Below are positions 3,168 to 64,000 of a stretch of DNA of 64,000 nt, one piece after another. Location of the stretch: the NCBI GenBank assembly GCA_013373175.1, contig JABXII010000023.1, positions 9,945 to 73,944 of the forward strand, written 5' to 3'. The notes under the pieces were generated by a model. It made no database searches, was not told the origin of the DNA, and saw only the letters and a program-made list of their open reading frames with translations. Made by a program: the position numbers and the translations under genes. This DNA comes from Campylobacteraceae bacterium. GTDB lineage: Bacteria; Campylobacterota; Campylobacteria; Campylobacterales; Arcobacteraceae. Numbering within the stretch: position 1 is the stretch's first letter; each line of letters starts with the position of its first letter.

Positions 3168-5150
3168 TTGAAAAAATTAGTCTATCTTATACTTCCTCTA
3201 ATGGTATCTTTTCTTTATGCCAAAAGTTTATTAACAAAAGAAGAAGTATCATTTTTAGAAAAACACAAAGAATTAAAAGTTTGTATCGACCCAAATTGGA
3301 TGCCTTTAGAAAAAAATGAAAAAGGTAAACATGTGGGAATGAGTGCTGATTATTTAAGATTATTTGAAAAAAGCTTAAATATAAAAATGACTATGGTTCC
3401 AACAAAAACCTGGAATGAGTCATTAAAGTTAGGTAAAAATAAAAAATGTGATATTTTTTCCCTTGTAATGCCTATAGAAGAAAGAAAAGAGTTTTTAAAT
3501 TTCTCCAAACCTTATTTAGAAATACCCTTAGTTCTTGCAACAAAAGATAATGAAGTTTTTATTGACGATATAACAGAAGTAACTAAAACAATGGGAGTTG
3601 TAAAAGGCTACGCTTATGCAGAAGTTTTAAAAGACAAATATCCAAATTTAAATTTAGTCTATGTAGAAAATATTGAAGATGGTTTACAAAAAGTTGACCA
3701 AGGGAAAATTTTTGGGTTTATTGGTATTCTTTCAACTATTGGATATAACATACAAAAAAAATATACTGGAAACTTAAAAATAGTGGGAAAATTCAATGAA
3801 AAATTGAACTTAGGAGTAGGTATTAGAAAAGACTACCCTATTTTAGTAGAAATTTTCAACAAAGCAATTGATAATATTAAATACGAAGAACATCAATTAA
3901 TTTTAAATAAATGGCTATCAATCAAATATGAAAAAGTGACTTATAAATATCTACTTGAAATAGTAGTAGTTTTCTTTTTAATCTTAGGAATAATCATATT
4001 TGTAAATAGAAAACTATCAAATGAAATCCAAAAAAGAAAAAGAATAGAAAGTCACTTAAAACGTGTCATCAAAGGAGCAAAGCTTGGTACTTGGACTTGG
4101 CATATTAATGAAGACAAAAATGTCATAAATAATAGACTAACTGAAATTCTTGGATATACAAAAGAAGAATTAAGCAATAAAAATCATCTTTTATTTATTG
4201 TAGAAGAAGATAGAGCTTTTGTAAATAAAGCATTAGAAGAACATATAGAAGGAAAACAACCTTATGAAGTATGTTATAGAATGCTAGCTAAAGATGGTTC
4301 TATAAAATGGATTTTATCAAATGGTAGTATTGTAAAAAAAGATAATGAAGGAAATCCTTTAATTATGGCAGGTATCCATCAAGATGTCACAGAGAGCAAA
4401 AAACTTGAACTAGAACTAAAAAGACAAAATGAATTTATTGTACAACAATCAAGACAAGCAGCAATGGGAGAAATGCTTGAAAACATTGCCCACCAATGGA
4501 GACAACCTCTTTCTGTAATCACTACTTCTGCAAGTGGAATAAAAATAAAAAGTGAACTTTCTCAGTTAGACCAAAAAGAGTTATTTGAATTTATGAATGA
4601 GATAATTAAAAGTGGAATGTATCTATCTCAAACAATAGAAGATTTTAGAAACTTTTTCAAAAAAGACAAAAAAGAGCGAAATATTCTCTCAACTGTTTTA
4701 ATAGAAAAATCTTTACAATTTTTAAAATCAAAAATTAAAAATAGAGAAATTAAAGTAATAACAGATATTCAAATAAAAGAACTAGTAGTATATGAAAATG
4801 AATTTATACAAGCATTAATTAATGTTTTCAGCAATGCAATAGATGCCTTAGAAAAAGTAGAAAACAAAAAATATATTTTTGTAACTATAAAAGAGAGCAA
4901 AAATAAATATATTATTGAAATAAAAGATAATGCAAAAGGTATTGAAGATAAAGTACTTCCAAGAATTTTTGATCCATATTTTACAACAAAACACCAAAGT
5001 CAAGGTACAGGAATTGGTCTTTATATGACTAAAGAAATTATTGAAAAGCATTTTTTAGGTAAAATAGAAGTTACTAATGAAGATTTTAACTATCAAGGAA
5101 ACTCATATACAGGAGCTTGTTTTAAAATCAAAATCCCTAAAAATGGTTAA
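3168..5150 (+). CDS. Sensor histidine kinase with periplasmic solute-binding (SBP_bac_3) domain and PAS
   Basis: Signal peptide, LKVCIDPNWMPLE PBP fold, TM, PAS, H-box ENIAHQWRQP, GTGIGLY. Strong AGGAGG SD before the TTG start. Confidence 0.92.
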   Translation: MKKLVYLILPLMVSFLYAKSLLTKEEVSFLEKHKELKVCIDPNWMPLEKNEKGKHVGMSADYLRLFEKSLNIKMTMVPTKTWNESLKLGKNKKCDIFSLVMPIEERKEFLNFSKPYLEIPLVLATKDNEVFIDDITEVTKTMGVVKGYAYAEVLKDKYPNLNLVYVENIEDGLQKVDQGKIFGFIGILSTIGYNIQKKYTGNLKIVGKFNEKLNLGVGIRKDYPILVEIFNKAIDNIKYEEHQLILNKWLSIKYEKVTYKYLLEIVVVFFLILGIIIFVNRKLSNEIQKRKRIESHLKRVIKGAKLGTWTWHINEDKNVINNRLTEILGYTKEELSNKNHLLFIVEEDRAFVNKALEEHIEGKQPYEVCYRMLAKDGSIKWILSNGSIVKKDNEGNPLIMAGIHQDVTESKKLELELKRQNEFIVQQSRQAAMGEMLENIAHQWRQPLSVITTSASGIKIKSELSQLDQKELFEFMNEIIKSGMYLSQTIEDFRNFFKKDKKERNILSTVLIEKSLQFLKSKIKNREIKVITDIQIKELVVYENEFIQALINVFSNAIDALEKVENKKYIFVTIKESKNKYIIEIKDNAKGIEDKVLPRIFDPYFTTKHQSQGTGIGLYMTKEIIEKHFLGKIEVTNEDFNYQGNSYTGACFKIKIPKNG

Positions 5151-58144: not shown

Positions 58145-60145
58145 ATGAATGATATAACAAATAAAGTACTTAAAACATACAATAATAATTTAGAATTTCT
58201 CAAACAGAAAGACTCAGAATTATATAATAAAGTAATTCTTTTAGAGCAAGCTATCGAAGAAAATTTATATAAAGAAAATTTTTTTTTAGAATTTAAAGAT
58301 GATAAATACTTTGATATTTTTGCAGATAATTCACAAAGTTTTATTTATAACCAAGACACTTACTTGTATGGAGAAAAAGAAGCAAAAAAAGTCAATTATT
58401 TGCCAAGTGAAAACTCATTTAAAACTTTTTATGACTTTTCTAATATACCAAATAATTTATTAACTTCATATAGTTTAATGGATGTTAATGGACATCACTT
58501 TTCATGCATTGCATCCATTCTTTCTTATATTAATACAAATACTCCTAAAAAACAAACACTACAAAAAATTAATAAGTTTTTATTTTTAGGTGTAGGATTA
58601 GGTACTCATATCCAACCTATTCACAATAAAATAAAAGCAAACACATATTTTATTGCTGAAGAAAATCTTGAGATATTTAGACTTTCTTTATTTACCACTA
58701 ATTATTATGAGATAGCAAAAGATTCAGCTATTAAATTTTCTATTTCAGATACAGAGGAAGTATTCAAAAAAAAATTTAATGATTATTTCAATTATGGATT
58801 TGTTTTTAATCACTTTTTAAAATTTAATTTATTTTCAAAAAATGCTGAAAAATTTGTTACTCTTATTCAATCTTGTCTTACAGAACAAGACCATTATTTA
58901 TTTCCATATCATAGGCCATATACCACTATTGAAAGATTATTTAATAGAAAAAAAGAAAATATTTTGGATGTGAGTAAATTACATGAATCTTTTAAAAATA
59001 CAGATAAACCTATTTTAATATTAGCTTCTGGTCCCTCTTCTAAGTACAACGAGGAGTGGTTAAAAGAAAACCAAGATAAGTTTATAATTGTTGCTATTTT
59101 TGCATCTTTGAGTTTTTGTGAAAAGAATAGTATTAAACCAGATATTATAATACAAATAGATGAATATGAAATTGCTACAGAGATAATCTTAAAGAAGGTA
59201 AAATCAAAAAAGTTATTTGAAGATTCAATTTTTGTATTAGGTTCTGCTGTTCATCAAAATATCGAAGAAGAATTCCAAAAAAATAAAAAATTTTTCGTTC
59301 AAATGAATCGAATTAATATGCATGAATCTTTAGGAAGAATTTCTGCTACAAGTGTAGGAGAATTTACTTATTGTTTATTGTTAAAATTAGGATTTAAAGA
59401 AATTTATCTATTAGGACTTGATTTAGCATTAGATCCAACTACTAATAAATCTCATGCTGATGACCACCATGCAAATAAAGAACTTAATAATAATGATGAA
59501 ATAGAAGAAGTATTTAGTATTACAAATAGTACTTTTAAAATAAAAGGTAATTTTCAAAAAGAAGTTTATACAACAACACTTTTTTATACTTCTATTAAAC
59601 TTTTTAATCAAATGAGTAGAGTACTTAAAGAAGATTGGCAAAATGTTTACAATTTAAATAATGGAGCATTCCTAGAAGGTGCACAACCGAAAAGAGTTGA
59701 AGAAATTGATATGTTAAACTTTAAAAATCTTGATAAACTCAGTTTAAATCAGGATTTATTTTCATCTCTTAACTCAATAAGTAAAAATATCATTAGTGAA
59801 AGCGATTTAGAGATATTAAATATTAAACTTAATAATGCATATAAAGTTAAAAAAGTTATTGATAACTTCGCAGAAATAAAAAGTTATAGTAATAGTAGTA
59901 TATATATGAAAAAAATACTAGAATTGATTTCAACAATTGTGAAACATAAGGATATAGATAATCTATCTGATATTTTATATAACTATTTCCAATTTATCAT
60001 TCATTATATTGTTTATTTTTTCCATTTAAAAGAAGTTGACAATCATAAAAAACATATAAAAAAGATTAACAAACTACTTATAAAAGAATTATATAGATTA
60101 GTAGATAAATATATTGAACATTATGAAGAATTACTAAAAAAGTAA
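58145..60145 (+). CDS. maf: Motility-associated factor (Maf) flagellin glycosyltransferase
   Basis: FLGVGLGTHI, EENLEIFRLSL, ILASGPS, KPDIIIQID, SVGEF, LLGLDLA, VYNLNNGA (Maf/DUF115 architecture). Confidence 0.88.
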   Translation: MNDITNKVLKTYNNNLEFLKQKDSELYNKVILLEQAIEENLYKENFFLEFKDDKYFDIFADNSQSFIYNQDTYLYGEKEAKKVNYLPSENSFKTFYDFSNIPNNLLTSYSLMDVNGHHFSCIASILSYINTNTPKKQTLQKINKFLFLGVGLGTHIQPIHNKIKANTYFIAEENLEIFRLSLFTTNYYEIAKDSAIKFSISDTEEVFKKKFNDYFNYGFVFNHFLKFNLFSKNAEKFVTLIQSCLTEQDHYLFPYHRPYTTIERLFNRKKENILDVSKLHESFKNTDKPILILASGPSSKYNEEWLKENQDKFIIVAIFASLSFCEKNSIKPDIIIQIDEYEIATEIILKKVKSKKLFEDSIFVLGSAVHQNIEEEFQKNKKFFVQMNRINMHESLGRISATSVGEFTYCLLLKLGFKEIYLLGLDLALDPTTNKSHADDHHANKELNNNDEIEEVFSITNSTFKIKGNFQKEVYTTTLFYTSIKLFNQMSRVLKEDWQNVYNLNNGAFLEGAQPKRVEEIDMLNFKNLDKLSLNQDLFSSLNSISKNIISESDLEILNIKLNNAYKVKKVIDNFAEIKSYSNSSIYMKKILELISTIVKHKDIDNLSDILYNYFQFIIHYIVYFFHLKEVDNHKKHIKKINKLLIKELYRLVDKYIEHYEELLKK

Positions 60146-60148
60146 GAA

Positions 60149-60835
60149 TTAAATTACTTTTTCTGGTATTTTAATAACGTACCCTTCTCTTTTTATAGTT
60201 TGAATCTCTAAGTCAGGTACTTTTTTTCTTAGTCTAAAAAGAAGTTGTCTTCTATTTTCATCACAAGTTATACTATCATGCCATAAAGCTAAATCAATAT
60301 GCTCATTTGAAACTATATGATTTTTATTCTGTATTAATATATGCAAAAATTGTTCTTCTTTTTTTGTAAGTTTTATATTTGTACTTCCTTTCATAAGAGT
60401 TCTATTTTTTGCATCATAAACATAGTTATTTGGAAGAGGTATCTCTTCTATTTTATCACTTAGTCCATATCTTAAAGACGCGAGTTTAACCTCTCTTAAA
60501 AGATGACTATCTAAATATGGTTTTACTATATAACCTGTGAAATCCACATTTGAAGCTTCTCTTAAAGTGTTGTCATCATGATATGAAGTTAGAAAAATAA
60601 CGGGAACATTGAAATTATTTTGTATTAATCTTGCAGTTTCAATACCATTAATCTCCCCTTTAATATTGATATCAGCAATAATAATATCAATTTCATTTTG
60701 GAACATTACTTCTAAAGCATTTTCACTTCTACTTGCAATGGCAACTACATGATAACCAGCCCACTCTAATGTTCTTTTCATTTTTTGTGCAGTTAAAATT
60801 GTATCTTCTATAATTAATATATTAATTTTTTTCAT
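60149..60835 (-). CDS. Response regulator with winged-helix output domain
   Basis: ILIIED, IIADINI, VIFLTS, YIVKP, LTKKEEQFL, QLLFRLRKK, IQTIKREGY. Confidence 0.92.
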   Translation of the reverse strand: MKKINILIIEDTILTAQKMKRTLEWAGYHVVAIASRSENALEVMFQNEIDIIIADINIKGEINGIETARLIQNNFNVPVIFLTSYHDDNTLREASNVDFTGYIVKPYLDSHLLREVKLASLRYGLSDKIEEIPLPNNYVYDAKNRTLMKGSTNIKLTKKEEQFLHILIQNKNHIVSNEHIDLALWHDSITCDENRRQLLFRLRKKVPDLEIQTIKREGYVIKIPEKVI

Positions 60836-60841
60836 AATAAC

Positions 60842-60878
60842 ATTTTATCACTTCTACGTTATATTCATCGTTATATTT
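60842..60878 (-). promoter_or_regulatory. RR promoter: TAACG direct repeat (12-bp period), 9 nt, TGaTAAAAT, 6 nt, ATG
   Basis: Minus strand AATATAACGATG AATATAACG TAGAAGTGA TAAAAT GTTATT ATG. Confidence 0.75.
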
Positions 60879-60925
60879 TAAAAAGATTACTTTTTTTATG
60901 ATAAACTCTTTAAAAAAAGAGTTTT

Positions 60926-62806
60926 ATGCGTATTTCTATTATTTTATTAGTTTTTTTATATATAAATTTACAAGCAAGTATTTTGGTCAATACACCAAAT
61001 AATATAGACCTTCTTCCCCACTCCAAAATATACCATGATATAGGCAATAAAGAAACTATAAACAGTATTTTTAAAAAAAATGATAAATTTATTACGACAA
61101 ATAAAAAAGTTATTGATTATTGTATTTTGGCTCCTGAAAGTGTATGGATAAAATTTAAACTTCATAATCCTACATCTTCCCATATAAAAAAGATAATTAG
61201 TTTTGAAAATATCTTTTTAGAAGAAATTGAGCTTTACAAAATAGAAAATCAGAAAATAGTATCTAAAAAAACTACTGGATTTTACCATCTAAAAAGTTTT
61301 GAAGGTACAGTCAAACTTAACGTTCCGGTAATTCTTAATCCAAATACTACACAAGATTATTATCTTCATGTAAAAAATGAAAAACTCTCTTTATGGTTTA
61401 AACCAATAATACATGATCCAAAAGAATTTAAAAAAGAAGACACAGCAAAGCAAGTAATTTGGGCACTTTTTTTTGGTGGAATATTGTCTCTTGTTTTATA
61501 TAATATTTTTCTATTTATTTTTACAAGAGATAAAATCTATTTGTATTACTTTCTATACCTTATTGCGACACTTATGCAAAGTGAGTTTTCTTCATATATA
61601 AGATTTTATTTTCTACCTATGGATGATATTGAATTTGTAAAAAAAAGCTTGTATTTTAATCTTTTTTATATAAATGTTTTTGTTACCTTTACTATGACTC
61701 TTTTTATTCGATATTTTTTAAATACAAAACTTTATCCTAAAATTGACTTATCATTGAAGTTAATCATTTTTATAATACCTATTTATTATATTTTACAAAC
61801 TTTTAATATCTTTACTATTCCACAGGTAATTCTTTTTCAGTTTCTTACTCCCTACTATTATTTTGGGATTGGGATTTATGCTCTTTATAAGAAAAACCCT
61901 CAAGCAAAATTCTTTTTACTAGGGTGGAGTTTTGCTCTTTTAGCATGGTTATCACTATTTTTTAAATTTTTGGGACTAATACCTGAAAAGTATGTATTTA
62001 CTTATACTTTTGAAACTCTTATTATGGCAGAGGTTATTTTATTTGCTATATCTTTAGCATATCGTATCAAAATATTAGAAAAGAAAAAAAATGATTTAAC
62101 AAAGTCACTTTTAATACAACAGCAAAATGAATCCAATCGTTTAGAAAAAATTGTAACTATCAGAACACAAGAGTTAAACAATGAATTAAAACAAAATGAA
62201 CTCTTACTAAAAGAACTACACCATAGAGTGAAAAATAATATGCAATTTATCACTTCCTTGTATGCACTAAAACTCAATGACAATGGGGATAAATATATCC
62301 AAGAAAAGCTTCATGATGTGGAAAGAAAGATTCATGCTATGAGTATAGTACATCAGATGCTTTATAATCAAAAGAACCTTGTAACTATAGATGCAAAAGA
62401 GTATTTTGAAAAAGTTTTACAAAACATAAAAGATAGCTTTGAACTTGAAAATATTACATTTGAACTTGATATAAACTCTTTTCTTGACACCGAAGAAGCT
62501 ATTTATTGTGGTCTTATTGTAAATGAGTTAGTTACAAATGCCATAAAACATGCTTTTGACTCAAAAGGAGGAATCATAAAAATCTCTCTAAATAGTGTAG
62601 ATAATGGAACATTATTAGAGGTTTCAGACAATGGTAGAGGGAAAAGTGCTAATACAAAAGCAAGCTTTGGGGAGATGATGGTCGAATCACTTGCAACTGA
62701 CCAATTAGAGGGGAAACTTCAAATAGTAGTTGATAAGGGTACACACATCTCTTTATGGTTTAAAAATAAAAACCAAAAAAGTAACGACGAAAGTAACGAT
62801 AGCTAA
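60926..62806 (+). CDS. 7TM-DISM sensor histidine kinase (HisKA_2/HWE-type)
   Basis: DISMED2-like extracellular domain, seven TM (YNIFLF...YLYYFLY), ELHHRVKNNMQ, NELVTNAIKHAF, SDNGRG. Confidence 0.92.
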   Translation: MRISIILLVFLYINLQASILVNTPNNIDLLPHSKIYHDIGNKETINSIFKKNDKFITTNKKVIDYCILAPESVWIKFKLHNPTSSHIKKIISFENIFLEEIELYKIENQKIVSKKTTGFYHLKSFEGTVKLNVPVILNPNTTQDYYLHVKNEKLSLWFKPIIHDPKEFKKEDTAKQVIWALFFGGILSLVLYNIFLFIFTRDKIYLYYFLYLIATLMQSEFSSYIRFYFLPMDDIEFVKKSLYFNLFYINVFVTFTMTLFIRYFLNTKLYPKIDLSLKLIIFIIPIYYILQTFNIFTIPQVILFQFLTPYYYFGIGIYALYKKNPQAKFFLLGWSFALLAWLSLFFKFLGLIPEKYVFTYTFETLIMAEVILFAISLAYRIKILEKKKNDLTKSLLIQQQNESNRLEKIVTIRTQELNNELKQNELLLKELHHRVKNNMQFITSLYALKLNDNGDKYIQEKLHDVERKIHAMSIVHQMLYNQKNLVTIDAKEYFEKVLQNIKDSFELENITFELDINSFLDTEEAIYCGLIVNELVTNAIKHAFDSKGGIIKISLNSVDNGTLLEVSDNGRGKSANTKASFGEMMVESLATDQLEGKLQIVVDKGTHISLWFKNKNQKSNDESNDS

Positions 62807-62813
62807 ATATAAT
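62778..62813 (+). promoter_or_regulatory. Adhesin promoter: TAACG direct repeat (12-bp period), 9 nt, TATAAT
   Basis: AAAGTAACGACG AAAGTAACG ATAGCTAAA TATAAT. Embedded in the final codons (SNDESNDS*) of the kinase. Confidence 0.75.
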
Positions 62814-62864
62814 ACTTGAATATAAGAAAGAAGAAGAAAGGTTCTTCTTATTCAAGGATATATC

Positions 62865-64000
62865 ATGAAATTAAATCACAACTATTCAAATAGATTCCGT
62901 ATTCTAAAAGGTGGAAAGATAAGCTTAGTAGTATCTGCTTTATTAGGAGGTATAACTCTAAGCTTTGCAGCTCCTAGTGGTGGAGTGGTAACTTCAGGGT
63001 CTGCTACTATTTCACAAAGTGGAAATACAACCAATATAAATCAATCCACCTCCAAAGCTAGTATAAACTGGAATAAGTTTAATATAGCCTCACATGAAAC
63101 AGTAAACTTCAATCAACCAAATGTAAATAGTATAACTCTAAACAGAGTAATAGGAAATGAAAGAAGTATTATAGATGGAGCACTTAATGCCAATGGTCAA
63201 GTTTGGATATTAAACTCAAACGGAGTACTCTTTGGTAAAAATGCAAGTATCAATACAAGTGGACTATTAGCTACAACTAAAGATATCTCAGATACTAACT
63301 TTCAAAAAGGAAACTATACTTTTAGTGGAGACTCAACGGAGTCTATTATCAATCAAGGTACTATAAAAGTTAAAAATAATGGTTATGTAATATTTGCTTC
63401 AAATGAAGCTAAAAATAGTGGAGTGATAGAAGCTATAAAAGGAAGAGTACAACTAACAGGAGCTGATGAATATACTATAAATCTAAATGGTAACTCTTTA
63501 ATAGATTTATCTGTAGATAAAGGAACCTTAGATGCTTTAGTTGAAAACTCTGGAACTATTCTTGCAGATGGTGGAGAAGTATATCTAACTACTCATGCAG
63601 TAGATGAACTTCTAAGAGGTGTAGTAAATAATACAGGTATCATAGAAGCAAATTCTTTAGATGGTATTTCAGGACATGTGGAACTATATGCCCATGGAGG
63701 AACTGCAAATATAGCTGGAACTATAAAAGCTAAAGGTGGGTTTGTAGAGACTTCAGGAAAAGAGCTAAGTGTAGCTTCTACAACTTTAGTAGAAGCTTCT
63801 AAATGGCTACTAGATCCTACAGATATTGTTATAGAATCAACAGGTGGAAGTGATATAACAGGAGCTAGTGTAAGTGCAACTGCTATAGAGTCTAACTTAG
63901 CCTCAACAGATATAGAACTTCTTGCAGATAATGATATTACTGTAAATGAAGATATCACTTGGGGTGAAGCTACAAAGCTTACTTTAACTGCAGGTAATGA
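62865..64000 (+). CDS. Filamentous-haemagglutinin-family (TpsA) exoprotein, 3'-truncated by window edge
   Basis: Manual translation from ATG 62865 (AAGGA SD): MKLNHNYSNRFRILKGGKISLVVSALL...APSGGVVTSGSATI...INWNKFNI...VNFNQP...LNRVIGNERSIIDGALNANGQVWILNSNGVLFGKNASIN. This is a TPS secretion domain. Open to the window end, so it is absent from the ORF track. Confidence 0.93.
   Translation, partial: MKLNHNYSNRFRILKGGKISLVVSALLGGITLSFAAPSGGVVTSGSATISQSGNTTNINQSTSKASINWNKFNIASHETVNFNQPNVNSITLNRVIGNERSIIDGALNANGQVWILNSNGVLFGKNASINTSGLLATTKDISDTNFQKGNYTFSGDSTESIINQGTIKVKNNGYVIFASNEAKNSGVIEAIKGRVQLTGADEYTINLNGNSLIDLSVDKGTLDALVENSGTILADGGEVYLTTHAVDELLRGVVNNTGIIEANSLDGISGHVELYAHGGTANIAGTIKAKGGFVETSGKELSVASTTLVEASKWLLDPTDIVIESTGGSDITGASVSATAIESNLASTDIELLADNDITVNEDITWGEATKLTLTAGN

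What the first reader, a model, noticed from the sequence alone, without database searches (positions are those of the whole stretch)
60836..62813. Same promoter architecture at the RR gene and the TPS adhesin gene defines a self-contained regulon
Seen: RR (minus strand) AATATAACGATG-AATATAACG-TAGAAGTGA-TAAAAT and adhesin (plus strand) AAAGTAACGACG-AAAGTAACG-ATAGCTAAA-TATAAT. Both have TAACG twice at a 12-bp period and exactly 9 nt to the -10 hexamer, with the repeat replacing a -35 box. The adhesin copy is encoded in the kinase's last codons (SNDE-SNDS*). Known: 7TM-DISM kinases are thought to sense carbohydrates or surfaces, and wHTH regulators bind direct repeats, usually at 10-11 bp. Inference: an HK/RR/adhesin module in which the RR autoregulates and switches on a TPS adhesin, with an atypical 12-bp-period operator predicted directly from sequence.
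Basis: partly seen in the sequence, partly recalled or inferred. Interest (0 to 1): 0.72.

Follow-up and report, generated by a model that had tools for sequence, protein, structure and literature searches.

The report
Adhesin regulon of a two-component system
A marine Arcobacter carries a movable gene island in which a membrane sensor and its DNA-binding partner seem to control the partner's own gene and several surface-adhesin genes through one short repeated DNA signal; the logic is classical, but this case is undescribed and unusually clean.

Summary
TAACG-N7-TAACG-N9-TAnAAT lies at 60842-60873(-), upstream of an OmpR-family response regulator (RR), and at 62782-62813(+), upstream of a TPS adhesin, inside the last codons of a 7TMR-DISM/HisKA_2 kinase (HK).

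In the 2.76-Mb genome a PWM finds four sites at 40-47 bits and nothing else above 12 bits. They are the RR promoter, two adhesin 5' ends and an autotransporter gene.

Of 184 Arcobacteraceae genomes, 16 have the RR orthologue. All 16 have at least two sites, one always ending exactly 6 nt before the RR ATG, which predicts a leaderless mRNA. Among the other 168 genomes, only one (with a paralogous HK-RR system) has at least two sites.

Where no target gene follows the HK (two genomes), the operator has decayed. Targets elsewhere are type V adhesins, a cadherin-like lipoprotein and a PAS/HD-GYP protein. The island sits at different chromosomal sites in close relatives.

Best reading: phosphorylated RR binds the 12-bp-period repeats at about -42 to -22, activates -35-less promoters and autoregulates. 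Binding, transcription starts and the sign of regulation are untested.

The parts
60149..60835 (-). Response regulator gene, 228 aa, OmpR/PhoB type. Phospho-acceptor set is E10-D11, D55, T83, K105. Recognition helix is DENRRQLLFRLRKK.
   Evidence: Pfam Response_reg 9e-21 and Trans_reg_C 1.5e-9. Alignment with orthologues and paralogues. It is the only RRQ-type helix in the genome.
60857..60877 (-). Operator at the RR promoter: two 12-bp-period units, AATATAACGATG-AATATAACG. The half-sites TAACG lie at 60873-60869 and 60861-60857.
   Evidence: Conserved in all 16 orthologous loci. PWM score 40.3 bits.
60842..60850 (-). Extended -10 of the RR promoter (TGa-TAAAAT). It ends 6 nt before the ATG, so the A of the ATG (60835) is the predicted +1, giving a leaderless mRNA with no SD.
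   Evidence: The 6-nt distance is invariant in 16 genomes while the 6 nt themselves vary. An in-frame stop lies inside the -10.
60899..60907 (+). Candidate extended -10 of the HK promoter (TGa-TAAACT), 28 nt from the operator. An SD-like AAAGAG follows at 60916-60921.
   Evidence: Conserved, with no indels between operator and -10, in 12 orthologous intergenic regions. This is an inferred promoter.
60926..62806 (+). Sensor histidine kinase, 626 aa: 7TMR-DISMED2 + 7TMR-DISM_7TM + HisKA_2 + HATPase_c. The variable C-terminal tail KSNDESNDS is encoded by the adhesin operator.
   Evidence: Pfam hits. Tails and stop positions vary among orthologues.
62778..62798 (+). Operator at the adhesin promoter: AAAGTAACGACG-AAAGTAACG. 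The half-sites lie at 62782-62786 and 62794-62798.
   Evidence: PWM 46.9 bits. Conserved upstream of target genes in relatives. Decayed in G024 and G008, where no target follows the HK.
62808..62813 (+). -10 hexamer TATAAT of the adhesin promoter, 9 nt after the second half-site, with no TG extension and no -35. Predicted TSS is near 62820.
   Evidence: The simple sigma-70 scan finds no -35/-10 pair here.
62815..62858 (+). Adhesin leader. Inner hairpin at about 62826-62853. A possible outer helix pairs CUUGAAU (62815-62821) with AUUCAAG (62850-62856), overlapping the SD AAGGA (62854-62858).
   Evidence: RNAfold gives a hairpin in every system-1 target leader, with different stem sequences. The outer helix is 95.6% paired, with 2 pairs showing compensatory changes and 13-24 of 500 shuffles as good. 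Function unknown.
62865..64000 (+). 5' part of a two-partner-secretion (TpsA) adhesin gene. It is open at the window end, and the contig ends 198 bp later.
   Evidence: Pfam TPS domain 1e-32. Contig break. A likely continuation plus TpsB lies at the C26 end.

Best explanation
The region is the control core of a portable adhesin island. The island holds a 7TMR-DISM/HisKA_2 sensor kinase and a divergently transcribed OmpR-family response regulator.

Inferred mechanism: when phosphorylated at D55, the RR binds as a head-to-tail dimer to two direct repeats (consensus AAWR-TAACG-NNR, period 12 bp). The repeats lie 9 nt upstream of a -10 hexamer, at roughly -42 to -22. From there the RR recruits or stabilises RNA polymerase at promoters without a -35 element, in a PhoB-like class II arrangement.

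One such site drives the RR's own gene, giving positive autoregulation. That promoter has a TGn-extended -10, which could supply basal expression, and it starts transcription at the A of the ATG, giving a leaderless mRNA.

The other sites have TATAAT without TG, so they are probably activator-dependent. They drive type V secreted surface proteins. In this genome these are two TPS adhesin genes and an autotransporter; in relatives they also include an inverse autotransporter, cadherin/Ig-like proteins and a PAS/HD-GYP protein.

The adhesin operator lies in the last codons of the kinase only because the promoter cassette abuts the kinase gene. The peptide tail it encodes is not conserved.

Shown: the sequence elements, their conservation, their phyletic coupling to the RR, and their decay when unused. 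Inferred: RR binding, the transcription starts, activation rather than repression, and the signal sensed.
For: Genome-wide specificity. A PWM built from 33 distinct sites gives four hits of 40-47 bits in the 2.76-Mb genome and nothing else above 12 bits. N7 is the only enriched spacing.

Phyletic coupling. 16 of 184 Arcobacteraceae genomes have the RR orthologue (72-80% identity). All 16 have at least two sites, one of them ending 6 nt before the RR ATG. Of the 168 others, only G005 has at least two, and it carries a paralogous HK-RR operon with the same repeat. G149 has one site, about 1.9 kb upstream of the start of a 48%-identity paralogue (one kinase-gene length). Three genomes have single hits with a TAACA first half, likely chance. 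The reversed-pattern control never gives two hits in one genome.

Position. Every real site sits 6-53 nt upstream of a gene start, always in the same orientation.

Functional constraint. The pentamers are invariant while N7, N9 and the flanks vary. In G024 and G008 the HK is no longer followed by a target gene, and the HK-tail copy has decayed: TAACG to TATTA or TAATG, and TATAAT to TATAAC or TAGAAC. A second TPS system in this genome (C34), not linked to the HK/RR, has no motif.

The RR as binder. The helix D-x-x-RRQ-x-x-FRL is shared by the orthologues, the 49% paralogue and the 38% 'system 2' RR, all linked to TAACG repeats. It is absent from the other OmpR-type RRs examined and occurs only once in the genome.

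Basal versus dependent promoters. RR promoters carry TGn before the -10; target promoters do not.
Against: There is no experimental datum.

The exact-pattern searches fixed N7, N9 and the orientation. Sites with another geometry would be missed in other genomes. Spacing was varied only in G000 and within the fetched loci.

Many target promoters are paralogous cassette copies, so they are not independent observations. The independent comparisons are RR promoter versus target cassette versus the system-2 promoters.

A 12-bp period is unusual for OmpR/PhoB regulators (own knowledge: mostly 10-11 bp), and no structural check was made.

A site overlapping the -35 region could equally serve repression in bacteria whose promoters need no -35.

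The genome is a 38-contig draft, so more copies may be collapsed or missing.
Confidence: 0.72

Rival explanations
1. Same operator and same RR, but the RR is a repressor. Bound at -42 to -22, it occludes promoters that are intrinsically active (perfect TATAAT, AT-rich upstream DNA). The kinase signal relieves or imposes repression, and autoregulation is negative.
For: Target promoters have a consensus TATAAT. Promoters of this bacterial group generally work without a -35 (own knowledge), so no activator is strictly needed. The site geometry alone cannot tell activation from repression.
Against: The geometry mirrors the PhoB class II activator layout: direct repeats in one fixed orientation abutting the -10 (own knowledge). 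Repressor sites more often cover the -10 or the +1.

The split between TGn-extended RR promoters and non-extended target promoters fits a basal regulator with activator-dependent targets.
Confidence: 0.17
2. The repeats are a real cis-element, but they are read by something other than the adjacent RR, such as another regulator or a nucleoid protein. Alternatively they are only shared ancestry of duplicated promoter cassettes.
For: Target promoters are clearly homologous cassettes over about 100 bp, including the 5' coding region. No binding data exist. In G024 and G008 another OmpR-type RR gene lies next to a motif-bearing gene.
Against: The RR promoter and the system-2 promoters share only the pentamers, their spacing and the distance to the -10 with the cassettes, not the flanking sequence.

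Coupling to the RR orthologue is 16 of 16, against 1 of 168 without the orthologue that have two or more sites.

The neighbouring RR of G024 is a core gene. It is 99% identical in this genome, where it sits beside an empty site with no motif.

The RRQ helix is unique to this RR.
Confidence: 0.08
3. Chance resemblance of two AT-rich promoter regions.
For: The genome is 28% G+C, so TAnAAT-like hexamers are common.
Against: The expected number of full motifs per genome is about 0.0006, against 3-4 observed. There were 0 matches in 100 shuffles. The motif is conserved across four genera.
Confidence: 0.01

Closest known systems
PhoB/PhoR and the pho box (E. coli); OmpR/PhoB-family class II activation in general
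   Same: An OmpR-family winged-helix RR. Two direct repeats in one orientation ending about 10 nt upstream of the -10, taking the place of a -35. Autoregulation of the regulator's own gene. A small regulon definable from sequence.
   Different: The half-site is TAACG with a 12-bp period, not the 11-bp pho box. The kinase is a 7TMR-DISM/HisKA_2 type rather than HisKA, and is transcribed divergently rather than in an operon. The RR mRNA is predicted to be leaderless. The RR is only distantly related to solved family members (best full-length match DrrD 1kgs, E 3e-14). The comparison with PhoB rests on my own knowledge.
BvgAS control of fhaB (Bordetella filamentous haemagglutinin)
   Same: A two-component system next to a TPS adhesin gene. 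It autoregulates and switches the adhesin on through repeated binding sites upstream of the promoter.
   Different: BvgA is a NarL/FixJ-type HTH regulator and BvgS is a periplasmic-domain hybrid kinase. Here the RR is OmpR-type and the sensor is 7TMR-DISM. There is no sequence relationship, so this is an analogy of logic only (own knowledge).
7TMR-DISM sensors RetS/LadS (Pseudomonas aeruginosa)
   Same: The same sensor module, 7TMR-DISMED2 plus seven transmembrane helices, linked to the choice of surface-attached lifestyle.
   Different: RetS and LadS are hybrid kinases that act through GacS/Rsm small RNAs, not through a dedicated DNA-binding RR with an operator. Here the transmitter is HisKA_2 and the output is direct transcription control (inferred).
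Campylobacterota OmpR-type regulators with direct-repeat sites (e.g. C. jejuni DccR, PhosR, CprR; H. pylori HP1043)
   Same: The same phylum and the same regulator family, with direct-repeat operators at -35-less promoters.
   Different: The published sites I recall have an 11-bp period and different half-sites (own knowledge, not checked here). None is linked to a 7TMR-DISM kinase or to type V adhesins. Literature searches found no description of this system.

Membership tests
OmpR/PhoB-family response regulator | Receiver domain plus C-terminal winged-helix Trans_reg_C domain | tested here: met
   PF00072 9e-21 and PF00486 1.5e-9.
OmpR/PhoB-family response regulator | Conserved phospho-acceptor residues (acidic pair, Asp, Thr/Ser, Lys) | tested here: met
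   E10-D11, D55, T83 and K105, read from the sequence and conserved in the alignment.
OmpR/PhoB-family response regulator | Binds direct repeats with a 10-11 bp period as a head-to-tail dimer | tested here: not met
   Direct repeats are present in one orientation, but the period is 12 bp in all of the roughly 60 sites seen. Binding itself cannot be tested with these tools.
Two-component sensor histidine kinase (HisKA_2 class) with 7TMR-DISM input | 7TMR-DISMED2 + 7TMR-DISM_7TM + H-box dimerisation domain + HATPase_c | tested here: met
   PF07696 3e-13, PF07695 6e-29, PF07568 3e-20 and PF02518 1e-7. The H-box is ELHHRVKNN.
Cognate HK-RR pair | Conserved adjacency and phosphotransfer | tested here: inconclusive
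   The two genes are adjacent and divergent in all 13 loci inspected, and form an operon in the paralogous system 2. Phosphotransfer is not testable here.
Two-partner secretion (type Vb) adhesin | N-terminal TPS domain after a signal peptide, with a TpsB transporter partner | tested here: met
   PF05860 1e-32. TpsB (PF03865) genes lie at C26:65837-67519 and C34:220067-221743. The link between the window's adhesin and the C26 TpsB crosses a contig gap and is inferred.
Class II (pho-box-like) activator-dependent promoter | Operator abutting the -10 at about 10 nt, no -35, and activator needed for transcription | tested here: inconclusive
   The geometry is met: 9 nt to the -10 and no -35. Dependence on the activator is not testable here.
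Leaderless mRNA | Transcription starts at the A of the start codon, with no SD | tested here: inconclusive
   The -10 ends exactly 6 nt before the ATG in 16 of 16 genomes. The 6 nt vary and contain no SD, and an in-frame stop lies upstream.
BvgAS-type virulence regulon | NarL/FixJ-type RR and BvgS-type hybrid kinase | tested here: not met
   The RR is Trans_reg_C type and the HK is 7TMR-DISM/HisKA_2.

The most novel reading that the evidence does not exclude
A self-contained, horizontally mobile adhesion module that carries its own sensor, regulator and cis-code.

Its regulator would use an unusual 12-bp head-to-tail geometry and would be made from a leaderless, positively autoregulated mRNA.

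Each target cassette would also carry an insulator: a helix between the bases just upstream of the start site and the SD. This helix can form only in read-through RNA from the upstream gene, so adhesin translation would depend strictly on RR-driven initiation.

It would be the first defined regulon for a 7TMR-DISM/HisKA_2 kinase.
Probability: 0.2. Interest if true: 0.65.

Novelty: new member of a known kind. Interest (0 to 1): 0.5.

Why it matters
If confirmed, it would matter in four ways.

1. It gives 7TMR-DISM/HisKA_2 kinases, a widespread sensor class with almost no known outputs, a concrete and very small regulon. That makes a clean experimental handle for finding the signal, because reporter fusions to four promoters would suffice.

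2. It explains how Arcobacter-group bacteria switch on type V adhesins (TPS, autotransporter and inverse autotransporter). Genome papers use these genes as virulence or colonisation markers, but their regulation is not described in the literature I could search.

3. It offers a natural test of how much half-site spacing an OmpR-family dimer tolerates (12 bp).

4. It shows sensor, regulator, operators and targets moving together as one island between chromosomal sites.

The regulatory logic itself is textbook, so the value lies in the quality and testability of the prediction rather than in a new principle.

Tried and rejected
- Consensus sigma-70 and terminator scan of 60700-63000. It does not call either promoter, as expected with no -35, and finds no canonical terminator. 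It is uninformative for this bacterial group.
- Literature. There is no description of this system. One paper lists an RR plus 7TMR-DISM pair on an A. cryaerophilus plasmid that also carries a haemagglutinin gene, without any regulatory link (PMC6690266). I found no paper on 12-bp OmpR-family sites.
- Earlier scan notes: none concern this locus.
- Solved structures: no close relative of the RR, so specificity cannot be transferred.
- Alternative binder: the second OmpR-type RR next to the island in G024 and G008. Rejected because it is a 99%-identical core gene that in this genome flanks an empty site without a motif.
- The idea that the kinase tail peptide (SNDE-SNDS) matters. Rejected because tails and stop positions differ among orthologues: the stop lies inside the first repeat in G018 and before the repeats in the G014 paralogue.
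- A third 12-bp unit upstream or downstream of the two repeats: not seen, only a weak A/C-W-A-G preference after the second half-site.
- Other half-site spacings: not enriched.
Full report
**1. What is in the window**

The finding spans four features:
- A 228-aa response regulator (RR) gene on the minus strand (60149-60835), with Response_reg and Trans_reg_C domains.
- A 90-bp divergent intergenic region.
- A 626-aa sensor kinase (HK) gene (60926-62806), with 7TMR-DISMED2, 7TMR-DISM_7TM, HisKA_2 and HATPase_c domains.
- The 5' part of a two-partner-secretion adhesin gene (62865 to the window end), with a TPS domain at 1e-32.

The window is G000:C17:9945-73944 of a 2.76-Mb, 28% G+C, 38-contig draft genome. 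The contig ends 198 bp after the window, inside the adhesin gene. Orthologous loci belong to marine Arcobacter/Halarcobacter genomes, for example Arcobacter iocasae KX21116.

**2.

- On the minus strand, TAACGATGAATATAACG-TAGAAGTGA-TAAAAT occupies 60873->60842.
- On the plus strand, TAACGACGAAAGTAACG-ATAGCTAAA-TATAAT occupies 62782-62813.
- No dinucleotide shuffle of the window gave a match.
- In the whole genome TAACG occurs 888 times, so 0.14 TAACG-N7-TAACG pairs are expected. Three are found, and every other spacing from 0 to 20 gives 0-1.
- All three have TAnAAT exactly 9 nt downstream; that hexamer has a frequency of 0.004 per position.
- The HK stop codon (62804-62806) lies between the repeats and the -10.

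**3. The regulon in this genome is four promoters, not two**

A position weight matrix built from 33 distinct sites gives four hits at 40-47 bits and nothing else above 12 bits. The four hits are:
- the RR promoter;
- the window's adhesin promoter;
- C19:4795-4826, upstream of a second, nearly identical adhesin 5' end where contig C19 breaks off;
- C19:139-170, upstream of a 796-aa classical autotransporter (PF03797, 3e-43).

On C19 the gene upstream of the cassette is an unrelated TPR-like protein. Its reading frame also runs into the operator and ends ...KSNGEYNDS*.

A second TPS system in the genome (C34: TpsA 221754-225485, TpsB 220067-221743) is not linked to the HK/RR. It has no motif and serves as an internal negative control. 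An adhesin C-terminus followed by a TpsB gene sits at the end of C26. This is probably the continuation of one of the broken adhesin genes.

**4. Comparative evidence**

- The RR has orthologues (72-80% identity) in 16 of 184 Arcobacteraceae genomes, spread over four genera.
- All 16 have two to five exact matches to TAACR-N7-TAACG-N9-TAnAAT. In each genome, one match ends exactly 6 nt before the RR ATG.
- In the 13 loci I inspected, a further match lies one kinase-gene length (about 1.94 kb) from the RR promoter, at the 3' end of the HK. The exceptions are G024 and G008; see section 6.
- Among the 168 genomes without the orthologue, only G005 has two or more matches.
- G005 and G008:C62 carry a paralogous 'system 2': an autotransporter gene and a 7TMR-DISM/HisKA_2 HK-RR operon, transcribed divergently, each preceded by TAACG-N7-TAACG-N9-TATAAT.
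- G149 has one match, about 1.9 kb upstream of the start of a 48%-identity RR paralogue (one kinase-gene length). G014:C22 has the same arrangement with a 49% paralogue and a TPS adhesin.
- Three genomes have single matches of the TAACA type with no such context.
- The reversed-pattern control never gives two hits in one genome.

Every non-chance site lies 6-53 nt upstream of a gene start, in one orientation.

Downstream genes across species:
- TPS adhesins;
- classical autotransporters;
- an inverse autotransporter (PF11924);
- a cadherin/Ig-like lipoprotein;
- a Big_9 outer-membrane protein;
- a PAS/HD-GYP protein.

**5. The conserved thing is a DNA element**

The two pentamers are invariant, apart from G/A at the last base of the first. 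The 7-nt and 9-nt spacers and the flanks vary.

The RR promoter and the system-2 promoters share nothing with the adhesin cassettes except the pentamers, their 12-bp period and the 9-nt distance to the -10.

The kinase tail that overlaps the operator is not conserved as a peptide. The tails seen are KSNDESNDS, KSNGEYNDS, KSNTKNNDS and KSNDKSNASLI. In G018 the stop codon is the TAA inside the first repeat. In the G014 paralogue the HK ends before the repeats.

**6. A natural experiment**

In G024 and G008 the adhesin genes lie on the other side of the RR, and the HK is followed by ychF instead. There the HK tail still aligns with the cassette, but both half-sites and the -10 have decayed:
- G024: AAAAGTATTAGTGAAAATAATGAGAACTAAATATAAC
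- Intact form: AAAAGTAACGGTGAATATAACGATAGCTAAATATAAT

The element is therefore kept only where it has a gene to drive.

**7. The adjacent RR is the likely reader**

The recognition-helix segment D-x-x-RRQ-x-x-FRL is shared by the orthologues, the 49% paralogue and the 38% system-2 RR. All of these are associated with TAACG repeats. It differs in the two other OmpR-type RRs of this genome that I aligned. A six-frame scan finds the RRQ-type helix only once in the genome.

A different OmpR-type RR that borders the island in G024 and G008 is a core gene. It is 99% identical here, where it sits directly next to ychF with no island and no motif.

**8. Promoter anatomy**

*RR promoter.* It has a TGn-extended -10 (GTGA-TAAAAT; in relatives TAAAAT, TACAAT or TAGAAT, nearly always preceded by TGn).
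- The hexamer ends exactly 6 nt before the ATG in all 16 genomes, although those 6 nt differ (GTTATT, ATTTTT, ACTTAC, TAAAGA and others).
- The 6 nt contain no SD, and an in-frame stop sits in the -10.
- With the usual -12 to -7 numbering, the A of the ATG is +1. This predicts a leaderless RR mRNA.

*Target promoters.* They have TATAAT without TG and a 43-53-nt leader with a good SD.

The contrast between a -35-independent extended -10 at the regulator gene and a plain -10 at the targets fits basal regulator expression with activator-dependent targets. That step is inference.

*HK promoter.* The HK gene has its own conserved extended -10 (TATG-n-TAAACT or TAGAAT) 28 nt from the operator, with no indel in 12 orthologues. 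The single operator may therefore also influence the HK promoter from about -49. This too is inference.

**9. Island behaviour**

G024 shares 90-94% nucleotide identity with this genome in core flanks. Its island (inverse autotransporter, TPS adhesin, TpsB, RR, HK) lies between a core RR gene and ychF. In this genome those two genes are adjacent (C34:11001-12853).

Here the HK/RR/adhesin module sits on C17 beside the maf/sialic-acid-like glycosylation genes, and it is only about 76% identical to the G024 module. Together with the patchy distribution (16 of 184 genomes in four genera), this indicates that sensor, regulator, operators and targets move as one unit.

**10. Mechanism proposed**

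The HK senses an unknown extracellular cue. The DISMED2 domain is thought to be carbohydrate-binding-like (own knowledge). The HK phosphorylates the RR at D55. The phosphorylated RR dimer binds the two 12-bp-period repeats at about -42 to -22 and activates transcription in a PhoB-like class II manner. This raises its own leaderless mRNA and switches on type V adhesins.

My confidence:
- about 0.85 that the element is the operator of this two-component system;
- about 0.8 that this RR is the binder;
- about 0.65-0.7 that it activates rather than represses.

The main rival is repression.

**11. What is and is not unusual**

- The logic matches PhoB and the pho box, and by analogy BvgAS and fhaB (own knowledge).
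- The RR is a distant family member. Its best solved full-length relative is DrrD, at E 3e-14.
- The 12-bp period is outside the usual 10-11 bp of the family (own knowledge; my literature search for precedents found nothing useful).
- The pairing of a HisKA_2 7TMR-DISM kinase with an OmpR-type RR, the leaderless RR mRNA and the mobile island are features of this system, not new principles.
- I found no publication describing it.

**12. Leader structure, followed only partly**

All system-1 target leaders contain a hairpin a few nucleotides before the SD. The stem sequences differ between cassettes: AAGAAGAAG/CTTCTTCTT, GGAGAAG/CTTCTCC, and A7/T7.

RNAalifold also proposes an outer helix, CUUGAAU/AUUCAAG, whose 3' arm overlaps the SD. 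It is 95.6% paired, with two pairs showing compensatory changes and 13-24 of 500 shuffles as good. The support is modest.

The 5' arm lies at or before the predicted start site. The outer helix would therefore exist mainly in read-through RNA from the upstream gene. It may act as an insulator or as the HK terminator. This is speculation.

**13. Limits**

The exact-pattern surveys fix the spacing and the orientation. The target cassettes are paralogous. The genome is a draft, and the adhesin genes are broken at contig ends.

Noticed in passing
G000 C34:11001-12853 versus L069/L021 (G024:C23): In a close relative (core flanks 90-94% nt identical) the whole island (inverse autotransporter, TPS adhesin, TpsB, RR, HK) is inserted between a core RR gene and ychF. 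In this genome that site is empty and the module lies on C17 at only about 76% identity, so the module behaves as a mobile island.
   Followed up: partly
L021:5490-5530 (G024) and L022:5460-5500 (G008): Decayed relic of the operator and -10 in the kinase tail where no target gene follows: TAACG to TATTA or TAATG, and TATAAT to TATAAC or TAGAAC.
   Followed up: yes
window 62815-62858; also C19:171-225: A conserved leader hairpin with different stem sequences in each cassette, plus a possible outer helix CUUGAAU/AUUCAAG that overlaps the SD. Its 5' arm lies at or before the predicted start site, so it may act as an insulator or terminator for read-through from the kinase gene. The SD region UUCAAGGAUAU also resembles a CsrA-type GGA site (own knowledge).
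   Followed up: partly
G000 C19:1-4972: A 5-kb contig with the operator-promoter cassette at both ends. The copy at 139-170 is in front of an autotransporter (215-2611). The copy at 4795-4826 is in front of an adhesin 5' end. An unrelated TPR-like ORF (3329-4816) reads into the second cassette and acquires the tail KSNGEYNDS*, like the kinase.
   Followed up: partly
L067 (G008:C62:119000-127500), L068 (G005), L071, L072: Paralogous 'system 2': an autotransporter gene and a 7TMR-DISM/HisKA_2 HK-RR operon transcribed divergently, each preceded by TAACGCAAGACGTAACG-type repeats. Further autotransporter genes elsewhere carry the same site. G008 has both systems with the same half-site, which raises the question of cross-talk.
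   Followed up: partly
window 60899-60921: The kinase gene has its own conserved TGn-extended -10 at a fixed 28 nt from the RR operator, so one operator may serve both divergent promoters.
   Followed up: partly
L059:2783-4052 and L064:2815-4052: In some relatives the first gene after the kinase, driven by the operator in the kinase tail, encodes a PAS/HD-GYP protein (a likely c-di-GMP phosphodiesterase). This links the system to c-di-GMP signalling.
   Followed up: no
G000 C34:220067-225485: A second TPS adhesin/TpsB pair with an unrelated promoter and no TAACG repeats. Not all TPS systems of the genome belong to the regulon.
   Followed up: yes
window 58145-60145: A Maf-type (MptE-like plus Maf_flag10_N) gene converges on the RR gene. 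The adhesin module abuts the flagellin-glycosylation region in this genome only.
   Followed up: no
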